53,127 nt of DNA from a virus (IMGVR_UViG_3300047202_000291), one strand, 5' to 3'; positions 35,036 to 50,160 are shown, counted from the stretch's first letter. The notes: a model not told the origin generated them from the letters alone. Program-made: numbers and translations.

Positions 35036-35112
35036 ATCTCTAATGAGTAGTAACAAAAGAAAATCAAGAGGAATACAAATTCTCATAAGATCGATTCGGG
35101 GGGTGTTTGAGA

Positions 35113-36127: not shown

Positions 36128-36514
36128 ATGGTAAATGGCTTTATATCTCACTTTAAAAAGGGCTGGCGCGGAGATTCTTGGAGACATTCTCAGGCAGCTC
36201 GTGGCATAGAGACTGGCTCTAAACGAAGAACTCCCTCATATGAAACAGACTATCGTATTGCTTCATTTATTCATAACGCTCCTGCAGAGGAGCCAGAGGC
36301 AGCAGTAATTCCAGGAATTTCTGCACCTTTGGAAGAACAGCAAGCCCAACCCGTGGAAGGCAGGCTCTTAACCGAGCCTGTCTCTACGGTCTCATTAGGA
36401 GCTCCCATCGAAACTCTAGGAACAGAGTTTAAAATTGATTCATTAATGATTCCTGGCACTCCTCCAGAGCCAAAGACTTTAGAGGAAGAGGCGCCTGGGA
36501 TTCCAGAAGGGTAA
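36128..36514 (+). CDS. Tagged protein 1: acidic, Pro-rich, probably disordered
   Basis: GWRGDSWRHSQAARGIET followed by an E/P/A-rich body. Confidence 0.75.
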   Translation: MVNGFISHFKKGWRGDSWRHSQAARGIETGSKRRTPSYETDYRIASFIHNAPAEEPEAAVIPGISAPLEEQQAQPVEGRLLTEPVSTVSLGAPIETLGTEFKIDSLMIPGTPPEPKTLEEEAPGIPEG

Positions 36515-36515
36515 A

Positions 36516-37142
36516 ATGAACAAATACAAATCATATGGAAAAGGTTGGCATTATGAATCTCATAGGCATAGTCTTGCGGCCAAGGGTATTAAGACATCAT
36601 TTGCATCGGAGAATGCATATATGAATTTGCTCGATTCAATTAATAAAATTTATCCAGAGCATGATTCGGATGAGCAGTTTGAACTCTTTGGTGATTGGAA
36701 TAGGGATTATTTAACGGGGTCAAAAGCATATGGTTCATTGTCATTTGCAGCAAAAGAAAATAAAGTTGAGGTTTATGGCGAAAAACTTAAATTAGCTCAA
36801 CCGAGAAAGATGGAAAGAGTTTATGATATTCAAAAGGATGTTGAATGGCAAATCGAGCGAGAAAGAAAAACAAAACAGCTGATTGCTTTAAAACAGGATT
36901 ATGCGAAAAGACTCGTGGAATTAGAGGAATTTGCTAAAAGAAAACCAACTTTTGAAAAAGAGGAAATTCCAGATCGGATTAAATTCGATGAGTTTCAGAG
37001 GCTACAGGATGAAATACAGAAACTCGATTCTGAGATAAATCCTTCGGTGGTAAAATATGAGAGGCATATAAAAGTCGCTGCACAAAGCTTATTTCCTTCA
37101 GAATTTAAAGATAAAATGGTGGTTGCTAAATCATATAAATAA
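36516..37142 (+). CDS. Tagged protein 2: coiled coil
   Basis: MNKYKSYGKGWHYESHRHSLAAKGIKT. Confidence 0.8.
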   Translation: MNKYKSYGKGWHYESHRHSLAAKGIKTSFASENAYMNLLDSINKIYPEHDSDEQFELFGDWNRDYLTGSKAYGSLSFAAKENKVEVYGEKLKLAQPRKMERVYDIQKDVEWQIERERKTKQLIALKQDYAKRLVELEEFAKRKPTFEKEEIPDRIKFDEFQRLQDEIQKLDSEINPSVVKYERHIKVAAQSLFPSEFKDKMVVAKSYK

Positions 37143-37153
37143 ATGGTGAAAAA

Positions 37154-38017
37154 ATGAATAATCGGTATAAATCCTATGGTAAAGGTTGGCATTTTGAATC
37201 AATCAGGCATAGTCTTGCAGCAAGAGGCATTTTGACAAGATTCAAGAAAGAAGCATCAGAGCCTATTTTTGGTAAAAGAGGAGTTGCCGAAGAATTAAAG
37301 GCAAGAAAGATGTCAGAAGCAAAAGCAAAAGATCTTATCGTTGCCGGAGCACTTTCTGATCTTCCTAAATCATCAGAGGAGAAGATGGCATTAAGGGAAT
37401 TGGAGCTTACATTAAGGCCAAGGGAAAGGCGTGGCGTTAGGATAATGAAATTAATCACTCAGAAAATTTCTTCTCCAATTCCATTCGAGAGTTTTGATCA
37501 TTATAAAAATAAGGTGAAAGGGGCTATTGAGGAAGTTATGCCTTTGAGTATGAAGGTTGATGTGAGGCTTCCAATAAGAGGAGGAAGTAAAGCTGGAGTT
37601 GTTACTGCAGAGCCTCCAACAGCAGAGGAATATATTGATTATCTGCTTGATCATCGTTATAAGGAGCAGTTTGGGTTCTATGATCCGTCAACAAAGACTT
37701 TCACTGCAGAGTATGAAGGTAGGCCGGAGAGCTTTGAAGTTTATGGTGGAAGAGGCATGAAGTCAAGAGAGTTAGAGAAACTTTCAGAAATGCTTGAGCC
37801 TATCGAAGAGAAGAAAAGGAAAGCTGAACTTGAGATTCTTGAAGATAAGCGAAGGAAAGAAGTTCGTGCAGAAGCATGGAAAAAAGCTGAACTCAGAGGA
37901 ATCCAATCTGATGAGATAGACGAAACAAAGGGGGACTTAATTAGTGTAGAAGTTAAGCCAACGAAATATCCCCCCATAAAAGCGGATATGATGTATTATG
38001 AGGGGGAAAAGGGATGA
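37154..38017 (+). CDS. Tagged protein 3: charged helical
   Basis: MNNRYKSYGKGWHFESIRHSLAARGILT. Confidence 0.8.
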   Translation: MNNRYKSYGKGWHFESIRHSLAARGILTRFKKEASEPIFGKRGVAEELKARKMSEAKAKDLIVAGALSDLPKSSEEKMALRELELTLRPRERRGVRIMKLITQKISSPIPFESFDHYKNKVKGAIEEVMPLSMKVDVRLPIRGGSKAGVVTAEPPTAEEYIDYLLDHRYKEQFGFYDPSTKTFTAEYEGRPESFEVYGGRGMKSRELEKLSEMLEPIEEKKRKAELEILEDKRRKEVRAEAWKKAELRGIQSDEIDETKGDLISVEVKPTKYPPIKADMMYYEGEKG

Positions 38018-39573
38018 GATTTTTCAGAAGATATAATAAGGGTTGGTATAACGATTCATATAGGCATAGCCTCGCAGCAAAAGGAATTAAAACAAGATTT
38101 GCTTCGAATGGACAGCAGTTAATACCTCCTTTGATGCCTCCGATCGAAGATAAGAACCTAACAAAGTTGGCTATGGATTATGCTGATGTTAAGATTAATA
38201 TTAATGAATTACAAAAATTAGTTTCGCCAGAAGAGGTATCTCTCGTTGTGGATAAGGCTGCTAAAATCACAGCAGATCGGCAATTAATCGAGGCGACTAA
38301 AGCCAGGGCAAGAAGAATGTGGGAAACGCCAGTTGGTCCGCGAAGAGAGGAAAGGGGAGCTGCTGCAATTCCAACAGCAAGAAAAATAGAAGAAGAAGAA
38401 AAGACCGAAGAGGAACTTGCCGCAGAACAAAGGCTTCCGTTCTCAAGATGGCTTACTCGGGTTAGAAGTGGTGATTTTACAGGGCCGGAGCCCCCATTGA
38501 ATGAGTCTGAGAAACTTGCACAAAGGGCAGCAGTTATTGATGGCGTACAGGCAAAAGTAGATCATGGTGATCTTCTAAAGGCTTCAGATTGGCAGGATTT
38601 GGAGAAAACATATGGTCTTTCACATTCAGAGATAAACAGGCTTAAAGCTTATCAACATCAGGAACTGCCTTCTTTGCTTAGGAAAACAGGTAGAGTCGCT
38701 GGCGCAGAAGCTCTCAAGATTGAAGAGGCAACCACCGGTTTCCTGAAGAAAGGTTGGGGATCTTTGAAAGAAAAAGTTCAGCCATCTATATCTGAAATTT
38801 CTGGTGGGAAAATTGAAGATGAGTTAAAGAAAATCGAAGCTAAGAAAGAGGAAATTGAGGCTGCAAAAGGTATATTTAATCCTCTCGGTGCCAGTTGGAT
38901 GGGTGAGGGTGGGGAAGAAAAGCTTAAGCAGGAGCAGAGAAAGAAGATTTATGCTGATGCTATTTCTGCTCAAAGGGATCTTGATGCTTTATTCGAAAAT
39001 AAGGAAGCTTTGGCAAAAGCTGATTTATCTGGTTATAATAAGGGAGAGAAGGCATTTAGGAAAGGAGATCGTGAGATGCTTTTAGATGCAATTACAGAGC
39101 TTGATGCTCAGCATATGAAGCTTCAGGATAGGATGTGGCATGTCGAGGCTGTTAGAGGTAATATTTTGAATAAGCAGACTATGGATCATACAATTGCTAT
39201 GGCTTCGGATGATGGCAATAAGATTATGCCAAACTTTTTATTTGGCAGTGGCGGAGGCAATGCAATTGTCAAGCAAACTAGGAAGGTTAACCAAATTAAG
39301 GAATCAATTAAGAAAAGTTCAAATGAGGTCGCTGGAAGGCTAGCTATGTTAAGAAACAAATTGAAGAGAATGGATGCGACAGTTCCATCTCAGGCACCAG
39401 TTCCAGAAGCTCCGGTTAAGGTATTCAGGAAAACTCAGGGTCTGGGAATCATTACGTCCTTTGATGATTTTGAAGGTCAATTAAAGCATCAGAACCCGGT
39501 GCTCGAAGGGATTCAAAAGAAGGAAATAAAGAATCCGGCTTTAAGAAAATTAGATGAGAGTGAAGAACAATGA
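38014..39573 (+). CDS. Tagged protein 4: 519-aa helical
   Basis: MRFFRRYNKGWYNDSYRHSLAAKGIKT. Confidence 0.8.
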   Translation: MRFFRRYNKGWYNDSYRHSLAAKGIKTRFASNGQQLIPPLMPPIEDKNLTKLAMDYADVKININELQKLVSPEEVSLVVDKAAKITADRQLIEATKARARRMWETPVGPRREERGAAAIPTARKIEEEEKTEEELAAEQRLPFSRWLTRVRSGDFTGPEPPLNESEKLAQRAAVIDGVQAKVDHGDLLKASDWQDLEKTYGLSHSEINRLKAYQHQELPSLLRKTGRVAGAEALKIEEATTGFLKKGWGSLKEKVQPSISEISGGKIEDELKKIEAKKEEIEAAKGIFNPLGASWMGEGGEEKLKQEQRKKIYADAISAQRDLDALFENKEALAKADLSGYNKGEKAFRKGDREMLLDAITELDAQHMKLQDRMWHVEAVRGNILNKQTMDHTIAMASDDGNKIMPNFLFGSGGGNAIVKQTRKVNQIKESIKKSSNEVAGRLAMLRNKLKRMDATVPSQAPVPEAPVKVFRKTQGLGIITSFDDFEGQLKHQNPVLEGIQKKEIKNPALRKLDESEEQ

Positions 39574-41735
39574 ACATGAAATCAGTCATATTAATCTTTT
39601 TTGCAATAATTGGGTTTACGATGCTAAGTTCAGCTATATTTATGAGCCAAAACTACAAAATGATTCAAGACAATGCCTTTAAGTCAGCGGTTCCTGTAGA
39701 AATAACTCAGATAAAGGAAGCCTCTACAGATGCAAATAAAATAAGGGCCATGTTGAAAGGTTCTATTTATGAATCTGGTGAAGGTATGTCTGTCTTCGGT
39801 GCTTGTTTTGATGGATATGGCTATTTGCTTCCCGGATCAAATGCGACCTTCTCATCTTGGTATCCAAATGGAACTCAGTGGCATAATGAATCTCCGATGG
39901 TTTCAATAGATAGTTCTGGTAGATTTGATATTCAGTTGACAATGGGAGATTCATATGGTACTTATTTAACAGAGATAAAGTGTAGGTATGAGGGGGATTA
40001 TGCAGTAGCTTATGGAGAATGGCAGAATCCGGATTGGGTTAAGAGGATTAAAGATACGCAGGATTCGGTGATTAATTTGACAAGCCTTGCTTCGGCGCAA
40101 TATGCTAATCTTACAATTTTAATTGGGGATTTCAAGGATGAGATACAAGTTAACTTTAGTCAGGTTCTTAATGCAATAGCGAATATTGATATTACTCCGC
40201 AATTTACTGGGTTGGATACTCAGCTTAAGGAAATATATAATCAGGTTCATGCTCTCGATACGTCTTTTTGGGTTATAGATACACAAGCTCCATGGTATTC
40301 TTTTGGATCGGGTATGTTTGAGTTTAGGGCGGTAGATATGCTTTCTCTAAATGATATATATGCTGTTTCGGACGACGGGTATATTGTATATTGGGATGGT
40401 GAAACTTGGTCTGTGGAGGCTAATTATTCTGACATTGCGTGGTATGGGGTCTCAGTATTGCCTGCTTCTACTCCTTACGCATGGTCTGTTGGGAGCGACA
40501 TTACGACAAGCACCTCCGTGTATTCGGTCAATGGCGGGACTCCGACCACGTTCAATGATAGCGTTGGTACAGCATATTGGGATATTAAGCTTTTCCCAGC
40601 CCCAAATAGTCCATCATCTAATTTTATGGGCTATATTTTGGAAGACAACGGCGTCGTATGGTATTCATCAGATTCGGCAATCACATTTAGTAATCCGATT
40701 AACATCACCTGTTCTGCAACTTCAGCAGATATTGGAAGAATTTCCCAAATCCTTTCTAATGCGGATCTTGGAGTCACTTCAGGGTATAGATTAGCGATGG
40801 TTATGTGCGATCAGTTCTTATATTATGATGGAGTTGGTTTTAGTGCATATACTGTGGCAAACCAGAAATTTAGGGATGTAGAGGTTGTCTATGATGATGT
40901 GGCATTTGCAGTTTCAAAGGATACAGTTACCAATGAGCTTAATGTATATCAATTTAATGGGACTGCATTGAGCCTTGTTTATTCAGCTAATGATTCTACC
41001 ATTGAGCCGAGGGGAATTGCTGCTGCAACTCCAAATGACGTTTGGGTGGTCACAAACAATCCATCAGTATATTATCATTATGATGGCTTTAAGTGGGAAT
41101 ATGCAAATTATCCTTACTCTGGTGCAATTGGACTAAGCATATTATTTACGAACGGTACTATTCCGGGGCTTTATGATATCAGTATGTTTAATTCGAAGAA
41201 TGCTTATGCGGTTGGAACAGATGGGCTGATTATGAAATTTTATAGCGCATATGATGAGAGATTTGATAAAGTTATAAACAATATATTGAATCTTTCAAAT
41301 ACTTTGAATTTATCTATTTTAAATGATATATATGGTGCTATTGTCGTGATAAATGGAACCACTTATAATATAAGTGTGGTTTTGGCCTCGATGAACACAA
41401 GTCTTATGGATTTGACAAATATTGTATTGGCGATGAACTTTTCGATAACGACTGAACTGACAAATCTTGATGCTAAGATCGATTTACTTAACGCTTCGAT
41501 GAATGTAAGATTCGATGAAGTCATTACCGAGATAAGTTACTTAGATTTATATTTAAATAGCACAATTTATCCGGCTTTGAATTTAATATTGGAAAGGCTT
41601 GGTGTAATTGAGACAAATGTCAATGCAACTTTGCAAATAGTTAATGAGACTCAGATTACAGTAAATCAGATGAATGCTTCAATAAATGAATTGTTGAATC
41701 AGTCGAGGCGTATCCACGCTTGGATAACGGTGTAG
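39570..41735 (+). CDS. Spike-like protein: Ig-like domain, beta-propeller and long coiled coil
   Basis: Signal anchor; domain shared with 19699; DIYAVSDDGYIVYWDG-type blades; heptad-rich C-terminus. Confidence 0.75.
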   Translation: MNMKSVILIFFAIIGFTMLSSAIFMSQNYKMIQDNAFKSAVPVEITQIKEASTDANKIRAMLKGSIYESGEGMSVFGACFDGYGYLLPGSNATFSSWYPNGTQWHNESPMVSIDSSGRFDIQLTMGDSYGTYLTEIKCRYEGDYAVAYGEWQNPDWVKRIKDTQDSVINLTSLASAQYANLTILIGDFKDEIQVNFSQVLNAIANIDITPQFTGLDTQLKEIYNQVHALDTSFWVIDTQAPWYSFGSGMFEFRAVDMLSLNDIYAVSDDGYIVYWDGETWSVEANYSDIAWYGVSVLPASTPYAWSVGSDITTSTSVYSVNGGTPTTFNDSVGTAYWDIKLFPAPNSPSSNFMGYILEDNGVVWYSSDSAITFSNPINITCSATSADIGRISQILSNADLGVTSGYRLAMVMCDQFLYYDGVGFSAYTVANQKFRDVEVVYDDVAFAVSKDTVTNELNVYQFNGTALSLVYSANDSTIEPRGIAAATPNDVWVVTNNPSVYYHYDGFKWEYANYPYSGAIGLSILFTNGTIPGLYDISMFNSKNAYAVGTDGLIMKFYSAYDERFDKVINNILNLSNTLNLSILNDIYGAIVVINGTTYNISVVLASMNTSLMDLTNIVLAMNFSITTELTNLDAKIDLLNASMNVRFDEVITEISYLDLYLNSTIYPALNLILERLGVIETNVNATLQIVNETQITVNQMNASINELLNQSRRIHAWITV

Positions 41736-41744
41736 GTGATTAAA

Positions 41745-41888
41745 ATGAAACTGAAAATGAATAAGTTGGTGTCTGTGCCGAAAGCAAAAATAAGTTTAAC
41801 CCCGCGCGGGCACAAAGCGCATCTTGGGATAAGGACGGTTAATCTAAAGGGTACCGAAAAGAAGAAATGGGCTCTTCCGTGGAAATAA
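41745..41888 (+). CDS. 47-aa basic microprotein
   Basis: AGGTGAT SD; MKLKMNKLVSVPKAK...KKKWALPWK*. Confidence 0.6.
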   Translation: MKLKMNKLVSVPKAKISLTPRGHKAHLGIRTVNLKGTEKKKWALPWK

Positions 41889-41898
41889 GGTGAGGAAA

Positions 41899-42687
41899 AT
41901 GAATCGCTATAAATCATATGGAAAAGGATGGCATTTTGAGTCATATAAGCATAGTCTTGCAGCTAAAGGGATTAAAACCAGATTTGCCGCAGACGATGAT
42001 AAAGTCATTATGAAAACAAGGAGTCTTGATGATTATCCTCCTGGAAGCCCAGAGAGGATGCAACATGTTCAAGAGATTATAAAGGCAGAAGAGCTTAAAA
42101 AGAAGAAAGGTCCAAGGGGCATTTCCGGCCCATCGACAATGAGAACGGATGTTGCTGTTGTTTACGGGACGACAGTTATGGATAAAGAGGGGGTTTTGCA
42201 TGTGGTTGGTGGCAAAAGGATTCCTAAGAAAAGGTTAAATCAGTTTTATGATGACTATATAAAAAAGACGCTTATGAATAAAAAAGTGCTCATGGATAAA
42301 GAAAAAGAAGCTGAAATAAGAGCTTTTATGATTGAGCAGGGTAAGCAGATTATGAAAAAAGAGAAAGGAGCGGACTTAACTATAGAAGAGGAAGCTGAAA
42401 TAAAACAAACGGTTGATGAGAGAATTAATGCAGCAAAGCTTCAATTTGGTAAGGTTATGGAGGATGTTAAGGCGATGGATGGTTGGCTTGATTCAATCGA
42501 TGTTACATCAGACTCTTTTGATAATCAGCTTCAAGAAGCTCAAGCAAGGGTAAATACAGTTATGGACCAACGAGGCACTATAATTCCAGGTCAAGAAGTC
42601 ACAAGATTAAGGGATAAAGTTAAAGAGATTAGGGAAAGAAGAAATGTTTACCTAAGGGGTAGACCGGAAAAATGGCCACCAGAATGA
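41899..42687 (+). CDS. Tagged protein 5: charged helical
   Basis: MNRYKSYGKGWHFESYKHSLAAKGIKT; AGGTGAGG SD. Confidence 0.8.
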   Translation: MNRYKSYGKGWHFESYKHSLAAKGIKTRFAADDDKVIMKTRSLDDYPPGSPERMQHVQEIIKAEELKKKKGPRGISGPSTMRTDVAVVYGTTVMDKEGVLHVVGGKRIPKKRLNQFYDDYIKKTLMNKKVLMDKEKEAEIRAFMIEQGKQIMKKEKGADLTIEEEAEIKQTVDERINAAKLQFGKVMEDVKAMDGWLDSIDVTSDSFDNQLQEAQARVNTVMDQRGTIIPGQEVTRLRDKVKEIRERRNVYLRGRPEKWPPE

Positions 42688-43199
42688 TGAGTAAATATAA
42701 GCGCCAAGGCTGGTATTTTGAGTCGCAAAGGCACAGTCTTGCTGCAAAAGGTATAAGAACGAAGAGATTTGACTTTGCTCTAATTAAGAAAATAGACGAA
42801 GGTCAGCCCAAGCCATTGACACCGCAGGAGATCGCTGAGGATAAGGCAAGGGAAAAAAAGCCATTTGATATGTTTAAAAGCCCCGAAGAGAAATCAGATT
42901 ATGGTAAGAACAGAAGGCGTGCGACCATCGATGAGGTTCAGCAGATGATGAACAATAAGTTTAGGCAACTCGAGAGGAAGGGAGACATTCGTTTTGAGGA
43001 TAGTATTCGTTTCCTAGATCATGAATATGCGCCAATTGCCAGGCGATTCCTCGATGGTGGTATGACCTTGGAGCAATTCGAATATGAGTCGGATGTTGCT
43101 TTTAATAATTTTACAAAGAATCATAAGCGAAGCTTAAGCCCTTTTGCATGGGGCGAACAGCAAGAGAGTTTTTTTAATTGGGAGGCACAGGCAAAATGA
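42684..43199 (+). CDS. Tagged protein 6
   Basis: MMSKYKRQGWYFESQRHSLAAKGIRT; ATGA coupling. Confidence 0.8.
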   Translation: MMSKYKRQGWYFESQRHSLAAKGIRTKRFDFALIKKIDEGQPKPLTPQEIAEDKAREKKPFDMFKSPEEKSDYGKNRRRATIDEVQQMMNNKFRQLERKGDIRFEDSIRFLDHEYAPIARRFLDGGMTLEQFEYESDVAFNNFTKNHKRSLSPFAWGEQQESFFNWEAQAK

Positions 43200-43450
43200 A
43201 AAAATTAAGACCAATCGAGAAGTTCGTTGGAATGGGCATTATTGCTCAGCACAACATCATTAAAAGGTACAAAAAATGAGTATATGTAGGAATTGTGGCG
43301 TAATGCATGCGGGTTTTTCATGCCCGGGATGTGGAAAGATTCATGGTTGAATATGATCCGCTTTGGGCAATAAAGCCAAAGAAGAGAATAAGAAGATTTG
43401 CAAAATATAAGAATATCAATGTTCCAAGAAGCAAAACGAAATGGTGGTAA
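43196..43450 (+). CDS. Chain of three coupled micro-ORFs: 43196-43279 (27 aa), 43276-43350 (24 aa, CxxC..CxxC), 43343-43450 (35 aa, basic)
   Basis: Overlapping start/stop codons fill the gap exactly; MSICRNCGVMHAGFSCPGCGKIHG; MVEYDPLWAIKPKKRIRRFAKYKNINVPRSKTKWW. Confidence 0.45.
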
Positions 43451-43451
43451 A

Positions 43452-43595
43452 ATGATTAGAAAATTTCCAAATCAGAGGAAATATGGGTTATATTCCTTAA
43501 CTTCACATAAAAGATTAGGGACGTTCAGAAGTCGAACAGCGGCTAATAAAAGGGAGCGTCAGATTCAGTATTTTAAACACAAAGGAGGAAAATAA
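43452..43595 (+). CDS. 47-aa basic microprotein
   Basis: YGLYSLTSHKRLGTFRSRTAANKRERQIQYFKH, a motif I associate with uncharacterised viral proteins. Confidence 0.65.
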   Translation: MIRKFPNQRKYGLYSLTSHKRLGTFRSRTAANKRERQIQYFKHKGGK

Positions 43596-43596
43596 A

Positions 43597-44895
43597 ATGA
43601 AAAAAGAAATTTTAGTAGTGTTGGCATCCTTGATGATGCTATGTGTAATTAGTTCGGTTTATGCGGCAGTGACAGAATGTGTAGACGCGAGCGGTAATCC
43701 GCAGGCGGGTCCGGGTGCGTATCCTATGTATAATGATACTGGGGTAGTTACAAATGTGACGCTCGGACAGATTTGTGTAGATGCTACAAATTATGATGTG
43801 GTGCCAAATGTCACATATAATTGTGGAAATACAAGTGCCATGATAGATAACGCGTGTACCTATACAACGTATTTTACTGGATTCCTCGGTGACGGGACAG
43901 TGACTTGTACGAATGTAGGGTGGGTCACCGGAACAACATATACTTTGGCAGTCGGTTATATAGTTAATACCACGATTAATGCGAGCTGGGTAACGAGAGG
44001 AGATTATATCTCTGATGTTGGTGAGATCGTGCCTGCAAAGGATGCATGTTTAAATGAGTATACCTTGCAAGGACCGACCGGATATTGTGACGGAGCAGGC
44101 GCTCTCGATACAGATGGTTCATTGGCAAATGCTACTGATGGAAATGTCTGTATTATTGGAGTTGATTCTCAGCCAGATGCATCAGTTCATTGTATAGGCA
44201 CAGCCGATACTTGGTCGGATTGTGTTGAAAACCAATGTGAAATAGATGAATATTATGTTGGTTATAGTGTGGGAAATGCGACTGGATGCTCCGATACTGA
44301 TTGGGTTTTGATGGGCGTAAGTGATCCTGCAAATGGATATAGGGTAAGCAACACCGGTCATGCGAATCTTTGTACATATGTGGCAACCGGTGGGATTCCG
44401 GTCTATACTGGATGTGCAAATGCATATACGAGGAATGGAACATCTGGTTATTGTAATGGTGCTGGCGGGGATGCAACGACAACTTTGCATGTGACTGAGG
44501 GTAATGTTTGTTCAGCTGGTGCCAATGCGCAGCCAGGTGCAGGAACAAATTGTGGGACTTGGTATAATTGCGTACAGGGTCAATCTGCAATCAATACATA
44601 TTATGTTGGTTATGCAGCGTCAGGTTCAAGTTGCTCTGATACTGATTGGGTGGCAACAGGATCGCATGTAGATTTAGCGAGCGGTCTTAGAGCAAGATAC
44701 ACCGATCATGAGTCAACTTTATGTAGCACATCAGGATATAATGCAGCATATAATAAAGGGGATTTCGAGCCAATCGTGACGGATGCTATGGGAACTGCAG
44801 GAGCTGGTGTTGTAAGTTGGGCTGATCTCGCGGTGACTTTGCTCGTTATATTATTCCTGGGTGGAGCAGTCCTCAAATACAAAAAATTATTTTAA
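43597..44895 (+). CDS. Minor coat/adhesin: signal peptide, Cys-rich repeats and C-terminal coat domain
   Basis: Last 52 aa are 27/52 identical, ungapped, to coat B. Confidence 0.8.
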   Translation: MKKEILVVLASLMMLCVISSVYAAVTECVDASGNPQAGPGAYPMYNDTGVVTNVTLGQICVDATNYDVVPNVTYNCGNTSAMIDNACTYTTYFTGFLGDGTVTCTNVGWVTGTTYTLAVGYIVNTTINASWVTRGDYISDVGEIVPAKDACLNEYTLQGPTGYCDGAGALDTDGSLANATDGNVCIIGVDSQPDASVHCIGTADTWSDCVENQCEIDEYYVGYSVGNATGCSDTDWVLMGVSDPANGYRVSNTGHANLCTYVATGGIPVYTGCANAYTRNGTSGYCNGAGGDATTTLHVTEGNVCSAGANAQPGAGTNCGTWYNCVQGQSAINTYYVGYAASGSSCSDTDWVATGSHVDLASGLRARYTDHESTLCSTSGYNAAYNKGDFEPIVTDAMGTAGAGVVSWADLAVTLLVILFLGGAVLKYKKLF

Positions 44896-44923
44896 ATTTT
44901 TTATTTTTTATTTTAGGTAAAAA

Positions 44924-46036
44924 ATGAACAAATACAAATTATATGGAAAAGGTTGGTATTTTGAATCAATTAGGCATAGTCTTGCAGCTAAAGGAATAAA
45001 AACTTGGCAAAAGGAATATAAGTCCCTCGTCAAATCTTTTCCAGGTGAAAATCCAAGATTAACCAAGGAATTTGCTAGATTCCGGCAAGAAGATCCGGGT
45101 AAATATGATAAATTCAGGGTTAAAAAGACTAAAACAGGTAAAGAGCTTATATTCGGCCATAATAAAAAGATGCGTGTTTGGGAGTTACAGAGTGTCCTTG
45201 TTCCAAGAGTTTCAATGGCATCTAAAGACTATTCTTTCATAGGAACTGCAGATGAGAAGCCGGGGCAGTTCATAAAGGAGAATTTGGAGTCACATGAAGA
45301 TCATTCAATAGAGCATTATGCAAAAGGAGTTGAATATGTACTAAAGCATCCTTTTAAGGATCTTGATGGTGATTGGCTTTCATATAATGAAGCTGCAGGT
45401 AACCATGTTGAACTTTCAAAACATCCTGTTGAGCGTGCCGAAGAACGTGGAGCAGCATTATTTGGTCGTGTCTTGTCGCAGGCCAACATGGAACCTTTGA
45501 TTGAGCGGGGTCAAGGTAGGACATTTAGGGAAATAACAATGGATATTGCATTTGGTAGAAGATCGGGGGTCACAGATGACAACGAACTTCATCAAAAGAG
45601 CCAAAAGCCTTGGCATGATCGGATCAAAGGCGGTCTCGCAGATAAGAAGAAGCCATCTGATTTTGATCAGAAGCAACTTATAGATGGTGTTAAAGTTGAA
45701 ATAGAGCACACCTCAAATCCTTTAATTGCCAAAGAAATAGCTATGGATCATTTGACAGAAGATAAATTATATTATAAGAAATTGGAGCTTATGGAAAAGA
45801 AGAGACATTCGATGCAAGCAGAAACGGTAGGAGTAGTTACAGCTGAGGCTCTTGCTGGTGCGGTTGCTGAACATGAAAAGCGAGCAACACAAAGGCAGGC
45901 GTATCATCAGGCTCATATTTTGGAGCATCAGCATCATAAAGATATTATAGAAGAGCAGGGTTATGATGTGAGGTCACCAATTCAAAAAACTGCTGCATTT
46001 ATGCTTACGGATGAAGGCTTTGAAAAGCCACAATGA
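44924..46036 (+). CDS. Tagged protein 7: multidomain with a DUF5661-like domain and His-rich end
   Basis: Tag; GGLAD...GVKVEIEHT...AKEIAMDHLTED..YYKKLELME. Confidence 0.8.
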   Translation: MNKYKLYGKGWYFESIRHSLAAKGIKTWQKEYKSLVKSFPGENPRLTKEFARFRQEDPGKYDKFRVKKTKTGKELIFGHNKKMRVWELQSVLVPRVSMASKDYSFIGTADEKPGQFIKENLESHEDHSIEHYAKGVEYVLKHPFKDLDGDWLSYNEAAGNHVELSKHPVERAEERGAALFGRVLSQANMEPLIERGQGRTFREITMDIAFGRRSGVTDDNELHQKSQKPWHDRIKGGLADKKKPSDFDQKQLIDGVKVEIEHTSNPLIAKEIAMDHLTEDKLYYKKLELMEKKRHSMQAETVGVVTAEALAGAVAEHEKRATQRQAYHQAHILEHQHHKDIIEEQGYDVRSPIQKTAAFMLTDEGFEKPQ

Positions 46037-46050
46037 TGGAGGTAAAGAAA

Positions 46051-46149
46051 ATGGCAAAAAACAAATTTTGGAAAAACCCAGTTGCTGCGCTTGGCGCTGC
46101 CGGTAAGAAAGCAATACCTAAGATAAAGCACAAAATAAAAATAATGTAA
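46051..46149 (+). CDS. 32-aa basic microprotein
   Basis: GGAGGT SD at 46038; MAKNKFWKNPVAALGAAGKKAIPKIKHKIKIM. Confidence 0.6.
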   Translation: MAKNKFWKNPVAALGAAGKKAIPKIKHKIKIM

Positions 46150-46167
46150 ATTAGTGGAGGTGAAATA

Positions 46168-46449
46168 ATGAGTCCATATGTGCCCACTTATGTGGCGGGT
46201 GATTTGTCAGCAATCGGTGTAGATGCGGCTGGAACAGCAGGGGCAGCAGCTGTTGGTTGGATTCCCTTGCTTGTCGGAGCCGGCATTATATATAAAGGCA
46301 CCGAGCTTGGCATAAAGAAATATAAGACATTAAAGAAAGAAGCAAAGAAGCATCCAAGGAAAGCAATGGCTTATCGTGGATGGCATTATGATTCATATAG
46401 GCATTCATTAGCAGCGAAAGGTATAAAAACTGGAAGATATAGGAGGTAA
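46168..46449 (+). CDS. Tagged protein 8: coat-protein paralogue carrying the tag at its C-terminus
   Basis: N-terminal 33 aa are 15/33 identical to coat B; GWHYDSYRHSLAAKGIKT at aa 71-88; GGAGGTGA SD. Confidence 0.8.
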   Translation: MSPYVPTYVAGDLSAIGVDAAGTAGAAAVGWIPLLVGAGIIYKGTELGIKKYKTLKKEAKKHPRKAMAYRGWHYDSYRHSLAAKGIKTGRYRR

Positions 46450-46454
46450 TTAAA

Positions 46455-46817
46455 ATGAAATATCAAGGAAAAGGTTGGCGTTATGAAAATTATAGGCACA
46501 GTTTAGCAGCAAAAGGTATAAGAACAAAGATAAGACCAATTAGTCTTTACGCAAGACCGCCATATATGTACGAGCATATGCATGGTCAGGAGCCAATGCC
46601 TATCGAAGAGCCTATTAAGTTAAAAAAAGAAGAATATGAGACTATTTTTGAGAAAGGAACTGAAACTGCGGAGAATCTCGGTGGGCAATTAGGTGATTTT
46701 ATATTCAGGACCAATCCTGAAAGTAAGGAAACTGCTTTCGAGAAGGGCACTACAACAGCAGAAGAAAAAGGAAAAGCCCTTGGGGATAAGATTTTTCGTG
46801 GTCCAATTAGATTTTGA
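46455..46817 (+). CDS. Tagged protein 9 with an internal 30-aa tandem repeat
   Basis: Tag; ETIFEKGTETAENLGGQLGDFIFR and ETAFEKGTTTAEEKGKALGDKIFR. Confidence 0.8.
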   Translation: MKYQGKGWRYENYRHSLAAKGIRTKIRPISLYARPPYMYEHMHGQEPMPIEEPIKLKKEEYETIFEKGTETAENLGGQLGDFIFRTNPESKETAFEKGTTTAEEKGKALGDKIFRGPIRF

Positions 46818-46826
46818 GGTAAGAAA

Positions 46827-46982
46827 ATGGCATATGATTTAGATGGAACATCCCCGATCATTAAGAAAGTAACTAAAGGTCCATATAAAAAAACAGATCC
46901 TATTTGGTGGCGGGATGCTGGTGGGAATCTTTTTGAGAAGGTTTCAATCAATTCCGTTAAAAAATGGAAGTGGATAAGGTAG
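46827..46982 (+). CDS. 51-aa basic/Trp-rich microprotein
   Basis: GAGGT SD; ...PIWWRDAGG...KKWKWIR*. Confidence 0.6.
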   Translation: MAYDLDGTSPIIKKVTKGPYKKTDPIWWRDAGGNLFEKVSINSVKKWKWIR

Positions 46983-46994
46983 GAGGTAATGAAA

Positions 46995-47162
46995 ATGAAA
47001 TACAACTATGCGAGTAAATTAAAATTTTATGACCTAAAGGCAAGAAAATCTTTCAAGACTGATAAGTATAAAGCAGTCAAAAAATCAGGAAGGAATTTTG
47101 TCGTGGCAACAGCGCCTTCGGGAGCTACTGCCTGGAGAATAGTTGCAAAACCAAAAAAGTAA
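46995..47162 (+). CDS. cc1: CC1-like archaeal chromatin protein (55 aa; not in ORF track)
   Basis: LKFYDLKARKSFKTDKY...FVVATAPSGATAWRIV matches the pattern I recall for Thermoproteales CC1 (KFYD.KA...F.TD.Y...F.VA.SP..G....R); GGAGGT SD. Confidence 0.65.
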   Translation: MKYNYASKLKFYDLKARKSFKTDKYKAVKKSGRNFVVATAPSGATAWRIVAKPKK

Positions 47163-47170
47163 TTTGAGTT

Positions 47171-47195
47171 GGCCTGCAGCAATGTGGGCTTTATT
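47171..47195 (+). terminator. GCAA-tetraloop hairpin plus T-run after cc1
   Basis: GGCCTGCA-GCAA-TGTGGGCT-TTATT. Confidence 0.35.
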
Positions 47196-47221
47196 ATCAT
47201 CAGTTCATACGAGGACGAAAA

Positions 47222-47776
47222 ATGAAAGGTTGGCGATACGAAGGATATAGGCACAGTTTGGCAGCTAAAGGTATAAGGACCTTTAAGAAAGGGAAATATC
47301 ATTTCACTTTGCCAGGTTCAGAAGTCATAAAACTTTCGAAGGAAATCGAAAGTGAGCTTAAGCCTTTATCAAGGAGAATTGACATTGCGGGCAGTATACG
47401 AAGAAAAGTCGATGAGCCAGTTGATGTTGATATTGTGATGATTCCAAAAAATAAAGAGAAAGTTCGTGAGAAACTTGCACATCTCGGGAGAATTACTGCA
47501 CAGGGAGAAACTATGGTTGAGACGAAGATCAATGGAGTCGATGTAGATACTTATTTTGCAGAACCAGATTCATACGGTGCGCAGCTTATGACGAGAACCG
47601 GTCCTTGGCAAGGCAATCTTGGAAATCGGACTTTGGCAAAAAACAAATGCATGAAGCTTAGCCAATATGGTCTTTTTGACCGAAAAACAGGCAAAAGAAT
47701 AGCTGGAAGAACAGAAAAGGAGATTTATGAGGCCCTTGGTAAAAAATATAAAGAACCAGAACTCAGGGGAATGTAA
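47222..47776 (+). CDS. polX: Tagged protein 10: minimal DNA polymerase X (palm and thumb only)
   Basis: IAGSIRR..DVDIV, VDVD, QLMTRTG, KLSQYGLF, EKEIYEALGKKYKEPELR. Confidence 0.85.
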   Translation: MKGWRYEGYRHSLAAKGIRTFKKGKYHFTLPGSEVIKLSKEIESELKPLSRRIDIAGSIRRKVDEPVDVDIVMIPKNKEKVREKLAHLGRITAQGETMVETKINGVDVDTYFAEPDSYGAQLMTRTGPWQGNLGNRTLAKNKCMKLSQYGLFDRKTGKRIAGRTEKEIYEALGKKYKEPELRGM

Positions 47777-47834
47777 TACGATTTATACTCGAATTTATAA
47801 ATGACGAAATAAATTGAAAACACAGGGTGAAAAA

Positions 47835-49115
47835 ATGGAAAAAATGAAGATGAAAAATCCGAATAGGATTAAAGTGATGTTGCTTGTATTAACAGTATTC
47901 ATTTTGGGTGGAGCAATAGCAGTTACGCAATATGCATATGGTTCTCAGGTTATTGAGAAAAATGAGAATATGTATATGATTTCCCACACAGAGTATAGAT
48001 ATGGTGAGATGGGGCAAATCATCGTTAGACTGGTTGATTTCCAAGGGGATCCAATTGTCGTGGATAATTGTACTGCTTCAATATTATATCCCGATAAGAG
48101 TTTTTTTGCGCAGGATGCTTTGATGTTGGATTCGGAGAACATAACTGGAGATCATTATTATAATTTTACCACGCCAAATGGTCCGGAAGGAGTCTATGAA
48201 TACCAGGCGACCTGTAATTATGCTCCAAGTAAAACAAAAACTGCAACTAATTCATTTCACTTGTCTTCAGCATTTAACACAACTATAGCTGATCTTGAGA
48301 TTGCAATTGCAGATTTGACGGAGATAAATAGCACAGTAGTTGCTTTTAGAACAGAAGTTCAGGCAAATTTTAGTCAAGTTCAGTCTGTTCTTAGTATAAT
48401 TAATGGAACTGCTGAAGAAATTCAATATACTGTTGAGCAGGCTAATGCGACGATAAATGGGATTAACTCAAATCTGAATGACTTTATTACTAATACCACT
48501 CTCGCCTTGGCTACAATAGATGCAAATACTGTGGCTATTAATAATACAGTAAATGCAATTTATGCAGATCTTGCGACTTTGAATACAACAATGATTGTTA
48601 GATTTGATGCGATTGATGCATATATGTCAGCGAACTTTACTCAGGTATTTAGTAATATATCTGATTTAAGGCAGCTTGTGTATGATATTAATACGAGTAT
48701 CATTGATGCGGCGAATGCAATCAATTTGTCCTTATCAGGATACATCGCTGATTTATCTGCGCAATTAGATGCAGTTAATCTGTCCTTATCGACCCAGATT
48801 TCCGATTTATCAACGAAAGTTGATAATGTGAATCTGTCAATTAGTTCAAGTATAGCAGATTTTAGGCAGGAAGTTCAGGTTAATTTCAGTCAGGCTTGGG
48901 TGTGGTTTGATTTAATAAACACAACGACAATTAGCACCTATGATTATATGACCGGAACTCTGGCAGATAATATAGATAGTGTACTGACAACCATCGGAGT
49001 GATTAATGCGACAGTAAATAGGATTGAAGAGAAGACAGATGTGATAAACACAACAACTAAGCAAATCTTGCAGAATCAGGAAGATGAGGTCTTCATAAGT
49101 ACATATAGTGGATGA
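47835..49115 (+). CDS. Spike-like protein: MG2/Ig-like domain and long glycosylated coiled coil
   Basis: TATA at 47794; signal anchor; TEYRYGE...GVYEYQATC...SFHLS; heptad/sequon-rich stalk. Confidence 0.75.
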   Translation: MEKMKMKNPNRIKVMLLVLTVFILGGAIAVTQYAYGSQVIEKNENMYMISHTEYRYGEMGQIIVRLVDFQGDPIVVDNCTASILYPDKSFFAQDALMLDSENITGDHYYNFTTPNGPEGVYEYQATCNYAPSKTKTATNSFHLSSAFNTTIADLEIAIADLTEINSTVVAFRTEVQANFSQVQSVLSIINGTAEEIQYTVEQANATINGINSNLNDFITNTTLALATIDANTVAINNTVNAIYADLATLNTTMIVRFDAIDAYMSANFTQVFSNISDLRQLVYDINTSIIDAANAINLSLSGYIADLSAQLDAVNLSLSTQISDLSTKVDNVNLSISSSIADFRQEVQVNFSQAWVWFDLINTTTISTYDYMTGTLADNIDSVLTTIGVINATVNRIEEKTDVINTTTKQILQNQEDEVFISTYSG

Positions 49116-49119
49116 GAAT

Positions 49120-50160
49120 ATGGATAAGTATAAGCATTACGGTAAAGGTTGGTATTATGAGTCCCTGAGGCACTCTTTGGCAGCTAGGGGCATAAGATCA
49201 ACCTTTGCTTTCGATGATAGATCCAATATTGTTACAATGGAGGACAGGACTCCGGGTAGAATAAGACAATATAATAAATTTCTACAGGAAAATGCTACCT
49301 TGCCCAACGAGCAGTTAGCAATAGCCTTGATGGGTAGGTTTGGTGAAATCAAGCAGCAATATGCTGATAGGCTTGTGCGGGAATTCAGGAAATGGCAGGA
49401 AGTCCCTATTCCGAAGTATGTTTTAGAGCAAGATAAAGGTAAGGCTAAGCTAAGAGTTGCAGATTATCATGACGCGATCGATAAAGTTCTTAGTAAGGAT
49501 CATTATCAAAATGCTACGGATGAGGAGGTTATTGTATATCTTATAAAGCAATTTCCAGAAGTTAATGAGCGCTACGCGAAAGAATTGCTTTATCGGCATA
49601 AGAAATTTGAAGAAGATCAGAAGAGGGCAAAATTCGGTTGGCATGGTAATTATGCGTCAAAATTGACAGGATTTCCAATAGCTTATACAAAGCAGGGTAT
49701 TCCAATCACGATAAAGAATCCTTTAAGGACTTCCTTTAATGGGAAACGCTATCCCGTGACTCCGGAAGAAGTCAAGCAGGAATTTGATAATTTATCCGAT
49801 GAGGCTGTGGCTGGCATTAGAGAGATTAGCTTCCGTGATCCATCAGAAGTGCCAGGAAGTAAGCAGGGTCTCGCTTGGGCACAATATGCGCGCTCTGCTA
49901 AGAGAATTAACATATTCTCTCAGCCAAAGGTAGAGGCCCAAAATCCTGAGAATAGGCGTTATTTGATGGCATATGTGCTTCCTCATGAGGCCGCCCATCA
50001 TGCGACTTTACATAATATGAAACTTACTGAAGATCCTATGATAGTTGAGGAGGCTCGCGCAGATGCGATGGTATATGGCGAAGATCCATTGAATCCAAAG
50101 GTTTTGCAAAGGCGCATTGCTTTGAGGCAGGCTCAATTTGGTCCAAAGGGTACGGTTTAA
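49120..50160 (+). CDS. Tagged protein 11: zincin-like (HExxH) metallopeptidase
   Basis: Tag; VLPHEAAHH...EEARAD. Confidence 0.75.
   Translation: MDKYKHYGKGWYYESLRHSLAARGIRSTFAFDDRSNIVTMEDRTPGRIRQYNKFLQENATLPNEQLAIALMGRFGEIKQQYADRLVREFRKWQEVPIPKYVLEQDKGKAKLRVADYHDAIDKVLSKDHYQNATDEEVIVYLIKQFPEVNERYAKELLYRHKKFEEDQKRAKFGWHGNYASKLTGFPIAYTKQGIPITIKNPLRTSFNGKRYPVTPEEVKQEFDNLSDEAVAGIREISFRDPSEVPGSKQGLAWAQYARSAKRINIFSQPKVEAQNPENRRYLMAYVLPHEAAHHATLHNMKLTEDPMIVEEARADAMVYGEDPLNPKVLQRRIALRQAQFGPKGTV

What the first reader, a model, noticed from the sequence alone, without database searches (positions are those of the whole stretch)
36128..50160. Eleven unrelated proteins share an 18-aa tag: candidate virion cargo-loading system
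Seen: GWx[YF][ED]SxRHSLAA[KR]GI[KR]T, often preceded by MNKYKSYGK, lies at the N-terminus of 10 proteins and the C-terminus of one. All lie in one cluster behind a single TATA. G, W, H, S, A, A, G, I are invariant and position 5 is always D/E. Codons vary, including Ser as both AGY and TCN, so selection acts on the peptide. Apart from the coat-fused copy, tagged bodies have no signal peptide or TM and are unrelated (PolX, peptidase, DUF5661, coiled coils, disordered). Knowledge: T4 internal proteins use a shared N-terminal capsid-targeting sequence, and encapsulins use cargo-loading peptides. Inference: the tag addresses proteins into the virion or onto the genome for delivery at infection. 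I cannot assign it to a described family.
Basis: partly seen in the sequence, partly recalled or inferred. Interest (0 to 1): 0.95.

Follow-up and report, generated by a model that had tools for sequence, protein, structure and literature searches.

The report
Shared address peptide on archaeal-virus proteins
Eleven unrelated proteins of an uncultivated, probably archaeal virus carry the same 18-residue peptide, which is undescribed, heads over 2,000 protein families in related elements, and varies by genome like a label read by one common partner, probably during particle assembly.

Summary
Exactly 11 copies of GWxx[ED]xx[RK]HSxAA[KR]GIxT lie at 36.1-50.2 kb, ten N-terminal and one C-terminal on a hydrophobic coat-like domain. 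Codon positions 1/2/3 are 81/79/49% identical, so selection acts on the peptide. The 11 bodies are unrelated: a minimal PolX, a zincin-like HExxH domain, DUF5661, and charged or disordered proteins.

No Pfam, NCBIfam, PHROG or PDB family matches the tag. A profile finds 2,062 protein clusters, almost all tagged at the N-terminus. They come from sediment contigs syntenic with this window and carry ligases, PolX, phosphatases and more. The tag is absent from IMG/VR and GenBank phages.

New here: each genome has its own tag dialect, kept despite saturated synonymous sites. This points to one co-evolving reader, a virus protein or the tags themselves, rather than plain DNA. A related repeat (hhalign 93%) occurs 3-6 times in alphaproteobacterial hemerythrin/DUF892 stress proteins.

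My best reading (about 0.45) is a docking tag that gathers soluble proteins at the assembly site or in the particle. The partner, any cleavage and presence in virions are unproven.

This scan had already noted the same tag on adjacent DNA of the same genome (e1-1853289).

The parts
36128..36514 (+). Tagged gene 1 (128 aa). Divergent tag GWRGDSWRHSQAARGIET at nt 36161-36214, followed by an acidic P/E-rich disordered tail.
   Evidence: Orthologue in L139 is 77% identical.
36516..37142 (+). Tagged gene 2 (208 aa). Tag at nt 36543-36596 with the MNKYKSYGK prefix. Body is rich in charged residues and matches no family.
37154..38017 (+). Tagged gene 3 (287 aa). Tag at nt 37184-37237. Charged, helix-rich body.
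38014..39573 (+). Tagged gene 4 (519 aa). Tag at nt 38041-38094. Long charged, coiled-coil-like body; the family is found in 15 loci and tagged in 13.
41890..42687 (+). Tagged gene 5 (265 aa; the likely true start is the ATG at 41899). Tag at nt 41926-41979.
42672..43199 (+). Tagged gene 6 (175 aa). Tag at nt 42708-42761. The family is found in 10 loci and tagged in 8.
44924..46036 (+). Tagged gene 7 (370 aa). Tag at nt 44951-45004. Body contains DUF5661. In relative L139 it corresponds to two separately tagged genes.
46168..46449 (+). Fusion of the coat-like hydrophobic domain to the tag (93 aa). The tag is at the C-terminus, nt 46378-46431, after a Lys-rich linker.
   Evidence: Orthologues in L087, L088 and L139. 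Reverse-order fusions (tag then coat) in L003, L056, L065 and L112.
46455..46817 (+). Tagged gene 9 (120 aa). Tag at nt 46473-46526.
47222..47776 (+). Tagged minimal family-X DNA polymerase (184 aa). The tag starts at residue 3 (MKGW), nt 47228-47281.
   Evidence: Pfam thumb 1.9e-15 and palm. PDB sequence matches to T. thermophilus PolX (2e-16) and to the 174-aa ASFV repair Pol X (1.7e-7, near full length).
49108..50160 (+). Tagged HExxH zincin-like protein (350 aa; the likely start is the ATG at 49120). Tag at nt 49147-49200. The family is found in 15 loci and tagged in 13.
35107..36006 (+). Untagged P-loop ATPase (Zot/AAA-like) immediately upstream of the tagged array. It is conserved in 10 loci and interrupted by inteins in some relatives. 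It is a candidate reader or assembly motor.
39570..41735 (+). Untagged protein with an N-terminal membrane anchor and many glycosylation sequons, inside the array (paralogue at 47814-49115).
43597..44895 (+). Untagged secreted Cys-rich protein that ends in the coat-like domain.
43307..43595 (+). Two untagged small, very basic proteins (43307-43450, and about 43452-43595 within ORF 43398-43595). They are conserved inside tag arrays of 5 and 11 loci.
46989..47162 (+). Untagged 57-aa basic protein, conserved inside tag arrays of 9 loci.

Best explanation
The peptide [K/R]GWxx[E/D][S/P]xRH[S/A]LA[A/S][K/R]G[I/V][K/R]T is a portable docking (address) module. It is a Trp-containing turn plus one capped helix of about 10 residues, on a flexible basic arm. 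This group of large, non-tailed, probably archaeal viruses attaches it to the end of otherwise unrelated soluble proteins.

All tags of one genome are read by one common partner that co-evolves with them. That partner is most likely a virus-encoded protein of the conserved morphogenesis module (ATPase, membrane protein, coat-like shell), or the tags of the other clients. Reading brings the clients together at the assembly site and probably into the particle. The clients include charged rod-like proteins, a minimal PolX, a zincin-like hydrolase, and in relatives ligases, phosphatases and acetyltransferases. The coat-tag fusion would act as the membrane or shell anchor.

Shown here: the shared peptide, selection on it, its modularity, its wide distribution, its linkage to the module, and the genome-specific dialects. 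Inferred: binding to a common partner, location in the virion, and delivery at infection.
For: 1. There are 11 copies on bodies with no mutual similarity. Codon-position identity of 0.81/0.79/0.49 shows selection at the peptide level.
2. The tag is a detached arm. AF2 on the tag alignment gives a helix over ESxRHSLAAK at pLDDT about 80. In the full-length zincin model, residues 1-45 have pLDDT below 50 while the body is above 90.
3. The profile finds 2,062 clusters at E<=1e-3 among 1.84 billion representatives. In 126 loci there are 467 tagged ORFs, 438 of them N-terminal. Bodies include DNA ligase, PolX/NTase, RNA ligase, HAD/NIF phosphatases, GNAT, TRAM and cupin.
4. Only 3% of tagged ORFs have a TM-like segment, against 31% of untagged ORFs. 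The exceptions are mostly fusions to the coat-like domain, in both orders.
5. Relatives are syntenic: the tagged arrays follow the same ATPase and are interleaved with the same membrane glycoproteins and small basic proteins. In each MAG the tags sit on one or two contigs.
6. Dialects exist: WIN GW[HY][YF]ESxRHSLAAKGI; L056 GWRGESHRHYLAAKGIKT; L073 GWxREPARHSLAAxGVKT; L125 ...RHYLAAKYG. Third-codon identity is only 0.40-0.51 (0.66 in one locus), so this is not recent gene conversion. Within-locus identity is 0.72 against 0.648 for shuffled sets (sd 0.003). At the variable positions, unrelated proteins of one genome are as alike (0.539) as orthologues in different genomes (0.539), and both exceed background (0.420).
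7. Each new or split gene keeps its own tag: WIN 44924-46036 corresponds to two tagged genes in L139. Among orthologues, tag identity is 0.64 against 0.42 for the bodies.
Against: - There are no data on virion content, and the element is uncultivated.
- The 'coat' is inferred only from its size, hydrophobicity and fusions. It matches no Pfam or PHROG family.
- No partner has been identified.
- Tags fused to either end of the coat-like domain do not fit a simple 'tag always faces the lumen' topology if that domain crosses a membrane once.
- Some tagged genes in relatives lie beside primase, dUTPase and MoxR genes rather than structural genes. A replication- or repair-centred hub therefore remains possible.
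- A related motif in bacterial stress proteins with no virus context suggests that the core may have a more general property, such as self-association or binding of a ubiquitous ligand.
- The arm is strongly basic, as expected for nucleic-acid binding.
Confidence: 0.45

Rival explanations
1. The tag is a nucleic-acid-binding arm. This small basic helix binds the viral DNA (or RNA) directly. It tethers repair enzymes and bridging proteins to the genome, which would bring them into the particle only passively.
For: - The arm carries about +7 net charge with conserved W, R, H, S and K, and a K/R-rich stretch follows the tag.
- Many bodies act on DNA or RNA ends: PolX, ligases, phosphatases, TRAM.
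- The coat-like fusion places the tag after a Lys-rich tail.
- Proteins with tags at both ends or in tandem would bridge DNA.
- There is a weak look-alike to the forkhead recognition helix KGWRDSVRHNL (E 0.6).
- The bacterial look-alikes lie beside TopIB and UDG genes.
Against: - DNA is chemically the same in all these viruses, yet each genome keeps its own dialect at positions 4, 6, 7, 10 and 16 across unrelated proteins, with saturated synonymous sites. This is hard to explain without a co-evolving protein partner.
- The bacterial version of the motif is charge-neutral and lies in D-rich tails.
- The forkhead match is not significant, and the tag lacks the rest of that fold.
Confidence: 0.2
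2. The tag is a homotypic 'sticker'. Tags bind one another, possibly through a metal bridged by the E/D5-H9 pair. Oligomeric coiled-coil tagged proteins would then form a multivalent matrix, single-tag enzymes would partition into it as clients, and the coat-tag fusion would pin it to the shell.
For: - Dialects shared by all tags of a genome arise naturally if the tags must fit each other.
- Several tagged bodies are long and rich in charged residues.
- Tandem and double-ended tags exist.
- The related bacterial motif occurs 3-6 times per chain, separated by low-complexity G/R/D spacers. This is a sticker-and-spacer layout.
- Coat-like fusions occur in either order.
Against: - There is no direct support for self-association.
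- The tag is a single short helix with a high positive charge, which disfavours self-association without a counter-ion or metal.
- The homology of the bacterial repeat rests on 17 columns and includes a one-residue indel.
Confidence: 0.15
3. The tag is a short linear motif that docks virus proteins onto a conserved host hub, such as a sliding clamp, chaperone or membrane-remodelling machine, and is unrelated to the particle.
For: - DNA enzymes are frequent among the clients.
- Tags also occur next to replication genes.
- The invariant core (G, W, R, H, L, A, G) is extremely conserved across diverged elements.
Against: - The tag is essentially absent from cellular genomes. There were 5 contigs among about 185,000 species genomes for the strict pattern, and 2 of 301 genomes of one class for the profile. 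No host client uses the same motif.
- Tags are concentrated in the morphogenesis block and fused to the coat-like domain.
- The dialects would require different host-hub alleles.
Confidence: 0.08
4. The tag is mainly a processing or turnover signal. It would be a propeptide removed by the conserved tagged HExxH enzyme, or a degron that times protein levels, with no docking role.
For: - A zincin-like HExxH protein is one of the most conserved tagged genes: 15 loci, with invariant H293, E294, H297 and E315.
- The tag has a strong preference for the N-terminal position.
Against: - No conserved residue or cleavage motif follows the tag. Positions +19 to +24 are variable and basic.
- Genuine C-terminal, internal and tandem copies exist.
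- Fusion to the coat-like domain in both orders is not expected of a propeptide.
Confidence: 0.05

Closest known systems
Capsid-targeting sequence (CTS) of phage T4 internal proteins IPI-III and Alt (from my own knowledge)
   Same: A short N-terminal peptide shared by unrelated proteins. The genes are clustered and turn over quickly. A hydrolase belongs to the same set. The proposed result is enzymes loaded into the particle and delivered with the DNA.
   Different: - The T4 CTS is about 10 residues, is not basic, binds the scaffolding core of an HK97-type prohead, and is cut off by the gp21 protease at an [LI]xE site.
- This tag is an 18-27-residue basic Trp-helix motif.
- No HK97 capsid, portal, terminase or prohead protease was found in the ORFs scanned.
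- No cleavage motif is conserved.
- C-terminal and tandem copies exist.
Encapsulin cargo-loading peptides (from my own knowledge)
   Same: A short terminal peptide on a flexible linker addresses diverse enzymes, including ferritin-like and hemerythrin cargo, to the inside of a protein shell.
   Different: - Encapsulin peptides are usually C-terminal and have a different consensus.
- They need an HK97-fold encapsulin gene nearby. None was seen in the window or next to the bacterial hemerythrin/DUF892 look-alikes.
GW[FY]GD[SP]xGHSEA[AS]RRGW repeats in alphaproteobacterial hemerythrin/DUF892 proteins (no name or description found by me)
   Same: The core is the same: GW..[DE][SP]..H[SA].A[AS][RK].G followed by a hydrophobic residue. 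hhalign gives probability 93%, E 3e-7, over 17 columns. The tag profile hits five repeats in P0068.
   Different: - The bacterial motif is cellular.
- It occurs in 3-6 internal tandem copies in G/R/D-rich tails.
- It is charge-neutral, has Gly where the tag has Arg8, and has one extra residue before the final Gly.
- Its neighbours are stress-type genes: Crp regulator, TopIB, UDG and glycogen/trehalose enzymes.
African swine fever virus repair DNA polymerase X
   Same: The body of the tagged gene 47222-47776 is a palm-plus-thumb-only PolX that aligns over nearly the whole 174-aa ASFV enzyme. ASFV is reported to package its repair enzymes (my own knowledge), which is the fate proposed here.
   Different: ASFV Pol X has no such N-terminal tag. 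The similarity concerns one cargo body, not the tag system.
Forkhead (winged-helix) recognition helix H3
   Same: Local sequence likeness: KGWRDSVRHNL against KGWxxESxRHSL.
   Different: The match has E 0.6 and needs a one-residue gap. The tag has none of the other roughly 80 residues of the fold. I treat it as a chance resemblance or, at most, a hint of groove binding.

Membership tests
T4-type capsid-targeting sequence | Short N-terminal peptide shared by otherwise unrelated proteins of one virus | tested here: met
   Ten of 11 copies are N-terminal and the bodies are unrelated. In relatives, 438 of 467 tags are N-terminal.
T4-type capsid-targeting sequence | Conserved protease cleavage site at the end of the tag ([LI]xE in T4) and removal during maturation | tested here: not met
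   No residue is conserved at positions +19 to +24 after the tag in 372 aligned tags. Actual cleavage cannot be tested with these tools.
T4-type capsid-targeting sequence | HK97-type prohead with scaffolding core, portal, terminase and prohead protease | tested here: not met
   Pfam scans of 38 window ORFs, including all ORFs of 400 aa or more, found none of these. PHROGs found nothing for the tagged genes or the module genes.
Encapsulin cargo-loading peptide | Encapsulin (HK97-fold, Linocin_M18) shell gene next to the cargo | tested here: not met
   None was found in the window ORFs scanned or beside the bacterial look-alikes.
Encapsulin cargo-loading peptide | Physical binding of the peptide to the shell interior | not testable with these tools
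KGG stress repeat (Pfam PF10685) | Match to the family model | tested here: not met
   There is no PF10685 hit in the window proteins at E<=0.1, in P0068:200-563 at E<=10, or in the genome holding P0197 at E<=1, although the model rang in 5 control genomes.
Forkhead / winged-helix DNA-binding domain | Complete three-helix winged-helix domain of about 100 residues | tested here: not met
   Only 18 residues resemble helix H3, at E 0.6. There is no Pfam forkhead hit.
Alphaproteobacterial GW...HS.AA repeat (undescribed) | Profile-level similarity of the motif core | tested here: met
   hhalign gives probability 93%, E 3.3e-7, over 17 columns.
Alphaproteobacterial GW...HS.AA repeat (undescribed) | Three to six internal tandem copies in a G/R/D-rich tail after a hemerythrin or DUF892 domain | tested here: not met
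   The window proteins carry one terminal copy each. Only a few relatives have two.

The most novel reading that the evidence does not exclude
A new group of roughly 116-117-kb non-tailed archaeal viruses uses a genome-specific peptide 'address code'. One Trp-helix tag, read by a co-evolving virus-encoded reader or by the other tags, assembles a dozen or more enzymes and rod-like proteins into an internal matrix of the particle for delivery at infection. The dialects keep co-infecting relatives from stealing each other's cargo. The tag derives from an ancient self-contained mini-module that alphaproteobacteria use in multiple copies in stress proteins.
Probability: 0.3. Interest if true: 0.88.

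Novelty: new variant of a known kind. Interest (0 to 1): 0.72.

Why it matters
No protein-sorting signal for particle assembly is known to me in non-tailed archaeal viruses, and my literature searches found none for archaeal viruses. If this tag is an address label, three things follow:

- The accessory proteome of an uncultivated virus group could be read from sequence alone, because the tag would mark the clients. These span more than 2,000 protein clusters, including ligases, PolX, phosphatases and acetyltransferases.
- The genome-specific dialects are a natural experiment in the co-evolution of a signal shared by many clients.

The link to a repeat in bacterial hemerythrin/DUF892 stress proteins makes both motifs easier to study, since the bacterial hosts are cultivable.

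Tried and rejected
- **Complex prediction.** Four copies of the tag (alignment A5, residues 4-36) gave no verdict: score 0.01 against a mark of 0.42. This is neither for nor against self-association, and it used the only job, so no tag-reader pair could be tested.
- **Known families.** Pfam, NCBIfam and PHROGs scans and PDB profile searches with three alignments found nothing for the tag.
- **KGG repeat.** I considered it because E. coli yciG (KGG) sits in one operon with DUF892 genes (my own knowledge). I rejected it because PF10685 does not hit.
- **Public virus collections.** IMG/VR gave 0 confirmed loci with the alignment and 0 with a degenerate DNA pattern. GenBank phage and archaeal-virus records gave no tblastn match to the tag or to the ATPase.
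- **DNA-level explanations.** A recombination site or gene conversion is rejected because third-codon positions are near saturation in most genomes.
- **Literature.** Sequence strings of the tag and of the bacterial repeat, DUF5661, and 'capsid targeting sequence' with 'archaeal virus' found nothing relevant.
I compared tag dialects with the coat-like, ATPase and small basic proteins. Too few loci hold both for a test.
- **Fold search of the HExxH protein.** Only weak zincin/gluzincin matches came back (best E 0.16), so no family is assigned.
- **Whole-record searches.** The long metagenome contigs behind L073, L045, L085 and L065 are not held. No genome is held for the window.

Full report

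Yes. A six-frame scan for the core H[ST].A[AS][RK]G returns exactly 11 sites. All are on the + strand between 36,185 and 49,171, and none lies elsewhere in the 53 kb. Each lies in a long ORF. Ten are within the first 35 residues. One is at the C-terminus of the 93-aa ORF 46168-46449.

In an alignment of the 11 arms, G, W, H, S, A, A, G and I are invariant and R, L and T nearly so. The repeat finder recovers the same 56-nt family at 70-86% identity to its reference copy.

Selection is on the peptide:
- Pairwise identity at codon positions 1/2/3 is 0.81/0.79/0.49.
- Half of the identical-residue pairs use different codons.
- Ser10 is encoded by both AGY and TCN.

Most of the genes have a GGTGA/GGAGG-like ribosome-binding site. 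The two GTG starts are probably ATGs 9-12 nt further on.

With the tag masked, no two of the 11 bodies resemble each other. The bodies are:
- a palm-plus-thumb PolX that aligns over almost the whole 174-aa ASFV Pol X;
- a DUF5661 protein;
- an HExxH...E protein whose C-terminal 165 residues fold confidently and resemble zincins only weakly;
- an acidic disordered protein;
- several proteins rich in charged residues;
- a hydrophobic coat-like domain.

**2. What is the tag, structurally?**

AlphaFold2 on an alignment of 44 diverse tags gives a turn carrying the Trp, followed by one helix over ESxRHSLAAK at pLDDT about 80. In the full-length HExxH protein, the first 45 residues have pLDDT below 50 while the body exceeds 90. 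The tag is therefore a detached arm and not part of the body's fold. A basic, variable stretch follows it.

**3. How widespread is it, and where?**

No Pfam, NCBIfam or PHROG model and no PDB sequence matches it.

A profile of the 11 arms, run against 1.84 billion cluster representatives, finds 2,062 at E<=1e-3. The best 150 almost all carry the tag at the very N-terminus. Their bodies include ATP-dependent DNA ligase, PolX and other nucleotidyltransferases, RNA ligase, HAD/NIF phosphatases, GNAT, TRAM, cupin and DUF5661. Most have no family.

A degenerate DNA pattern gave these counts:

| Collection | Result |
|---|---|
| IMG/VR | 0 hits |
| About 185,000 species genomes | 5 contigs |

In the five MAGs, the tags sit on one or two contigs each. 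Of 301 genomes of one archaeal class, only two carry the tag. GenBank phage and archaeal-virus records hold neither the tag nor the ATPase.

The 126 loci plus the window (607 kb) hold 467 tagged ORFs. Of these, 438 are N-terminal, with up to 14 per 10 kb.

**4. Context**

Two long MAG contigs (56 and 37 kb) and a 116-kb metagenome contig are syntenic with the window. The order is giant secreted proteins, then a 273-aa membrane protein, then a Zot/AAA-like ATPase, then the tagged array. The array is interleaved with membrane glycoproteins, small basic proteins and coat-like domains.

Conserved tagged families are the HExxH protein, the 519-aa charged protein, the DUF5661 and PolX proteins, a 175-aa protein and the coat-tag fusion.

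Tagged ORFs almost never have a TM-like segment (3%, against 31% of untagged ORFs). The exceptions are mostly fusions to the coat-like domain, and these occur in both orders.

Where a gene is split or replaced in a relative, each piece has its own tag. Among orthologues the tag is more conserved than the body (0.64 against 0.42).

In some relatives, tags also flank AEP primase, dUTPase and MoxR genes. Another note reports archaeal-type tRNAs with introns. I did not re-test the tRNA finding.

**5. The most informative new result: dialects**

Each genome has its own version of the variable positions:

| Genome | Dialect |
|---|---|
| Window | GW[HY][YF]ESxRHSLAAKGI |
| L056 | GWRGESHRHYLAAKGIKT (8 of 12 copies) |
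| L073 | GWxREPARHSLAAxGVKT |
| L125 | ...RHYLAAKYG |

Third-codon identity among the tags of one genome is only 0.40-0.51, with 0.66 in one locus. Within-locus identity is 0.72, against 0.648 +/- 0.003 after shuffling.

At the ten variable positions, identities are:
- tags of unrelated proteins in one genome: 0.539;
- tags of orthologues in different genomes: 0.539 (0.482 when the bodies are below 50% identical);
- background: 0.420.

Many independent genes have therefore shifted together under selection. This is what one expects if all tags of a genome fit one partner that itself changes between lineages. That partner could be a virus-encoded protein or the other tags. It is not what one expects of binding to DNA alone.

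**6. A relative outside viruses**

The profile also hit P0068, a DUF892 protein with five repeats of GRGWYGDSxGHSEAARRGW. At least 558 alphaproteobacterial proteins (Novosphingobium, Phenylobacterium, Caulobacteraceae, Bauldia) have a hemerythrin or DUF892 domain followed by 3-6 such repeats in a G/R/D-rich tail.

Profile-profile comparison with the viral tag gives 93% probability and E 3e-7 over 17 columns, with a one-residue indel.

Their neighbours are a Crp-type regulator, TopIB, UDG and glycogen/trehalose enzymes, and there is no encapsulin. The Pfam KGG stress-repeat model does not match them.

This suggests the core is an old, self-contained mini-module. What it binds in bacteria is unknown.

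**7. Mechanism**

I commit to a docking (address) tag read by one common, co-evolving partner. It would gather soluble proteins at the assembly site and probably into the particle (0.45). The linkage to the morphogenesis block, the coat-like fusions, the exclusion from membrane proteins, the modularity and the dialects support this. Virion location, the partner and any cleavage are inferred, not shown.

Rivals are:
- a nucleic-acid-binding arm (0.20), favoured by the charge and the DNA enzymes and disfavoured by the dialects;
- a homotypic sticker that builds a matrix (0.15), favoured by the dialects, tandem tags and the bacterial multi-repeat layout;
- a host-hub motif (0.08);
- a pure processing signal or degron (0.05).

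Fusions on both ends of the coat-like domain remain unexplained if that domain spans a membrane once.

**8. Comparison and novelty**

The tag works like the T4 capsid-targeting sequence or encapsulin cargo peptides, but it is a member of neither. There is no HK97-type head, scaffold, prohead protease or encapsulin gene, no conserved cleavage site, and the chemistry differs. I found no publication on it. It is a new variant of a known kind of system, in an undescribed virus group. This scan had already noted it on neighbouring DNA of the same genome.

Noticed in passing
P0068 and P0151-P0269 (e.g. L133:8001-9404, L136:8001-9413): At least 558 alphaproteobacterial hemerythrin or DUF892 proteins end in G/R/D-rich tails with 3-6 repeats of GW[FY]GD[SP]xGHSEA[AS]RRGW. 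They also carry 'D..GRFTS' motifs. I found no family or paper for the repeat. The genes sit beside Crp-type regulator, TopIB, UDG and glycogen/trehalose genes.
   Followed up: partly
L010:3364-5460 (-) and L127:1751-4822 (-): The orthologues of the window ATPase (299 aa) are 698 and 1,023 aa in two relatives. In L010 the extra sequence starts inside the P-loop (GSQGC...), which looks like intein insertion.
   Followed up: no
window 46051-46149 (+): A 32-codon micro-ORF (MAKNKFWKNPVAALGAAGKKAIPKIKHKIKIM) lies in the gap before the coat-tag gene. It is conserved in relative L139 (11376-11474), so it is probably a real small basic protein.
   Followed up: partly
window 44924-46036 versus L139:10001-11379: The single 370-aa tagged DUF5661 gene of the window corresponds to two adjacent genes in the 116-kb relative, each with its own tag. 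The tagged PolX is 343 aa there, against 184 aa here.
   Followed up: partly
window 43307-43450, 43452-43595, 46989-47162: Three very basic untagged proteins of about 36-57 aa are conserved inside tag arrays of 5-11 loci. They may be DNA-condensing or adaptor proteins. They have no family match.
   Followed up: partly
L132:9568-9900 (-), Thermoplasmata MAG contig of 176 kb: A lone tagged 110-aa protein with a TM-like segment lies next to RusA and PIN-domain genes. This may be an integrated element, which would hint at a host.
   Followed up: partly
L138:8376-9227 (+), 420-kb contig of a small archaeal genome: A multi-pass membrane protein with a His/Lys-rich N-terminus contains a tag-like KGWFAEREQHKLAAQGVK (profile E 5e-6 for that genome). 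It lies directly upstream of a type-IV-pilus/archaellum-like ATPase and membrane genes.
   Followed up: no
window 32130-32340 (+): A Q/P-rich imperfect repeat (units of 12-18 nt, six copies of a 37-nt family) lies inside ORF 31896-32567.
   Followed up: no
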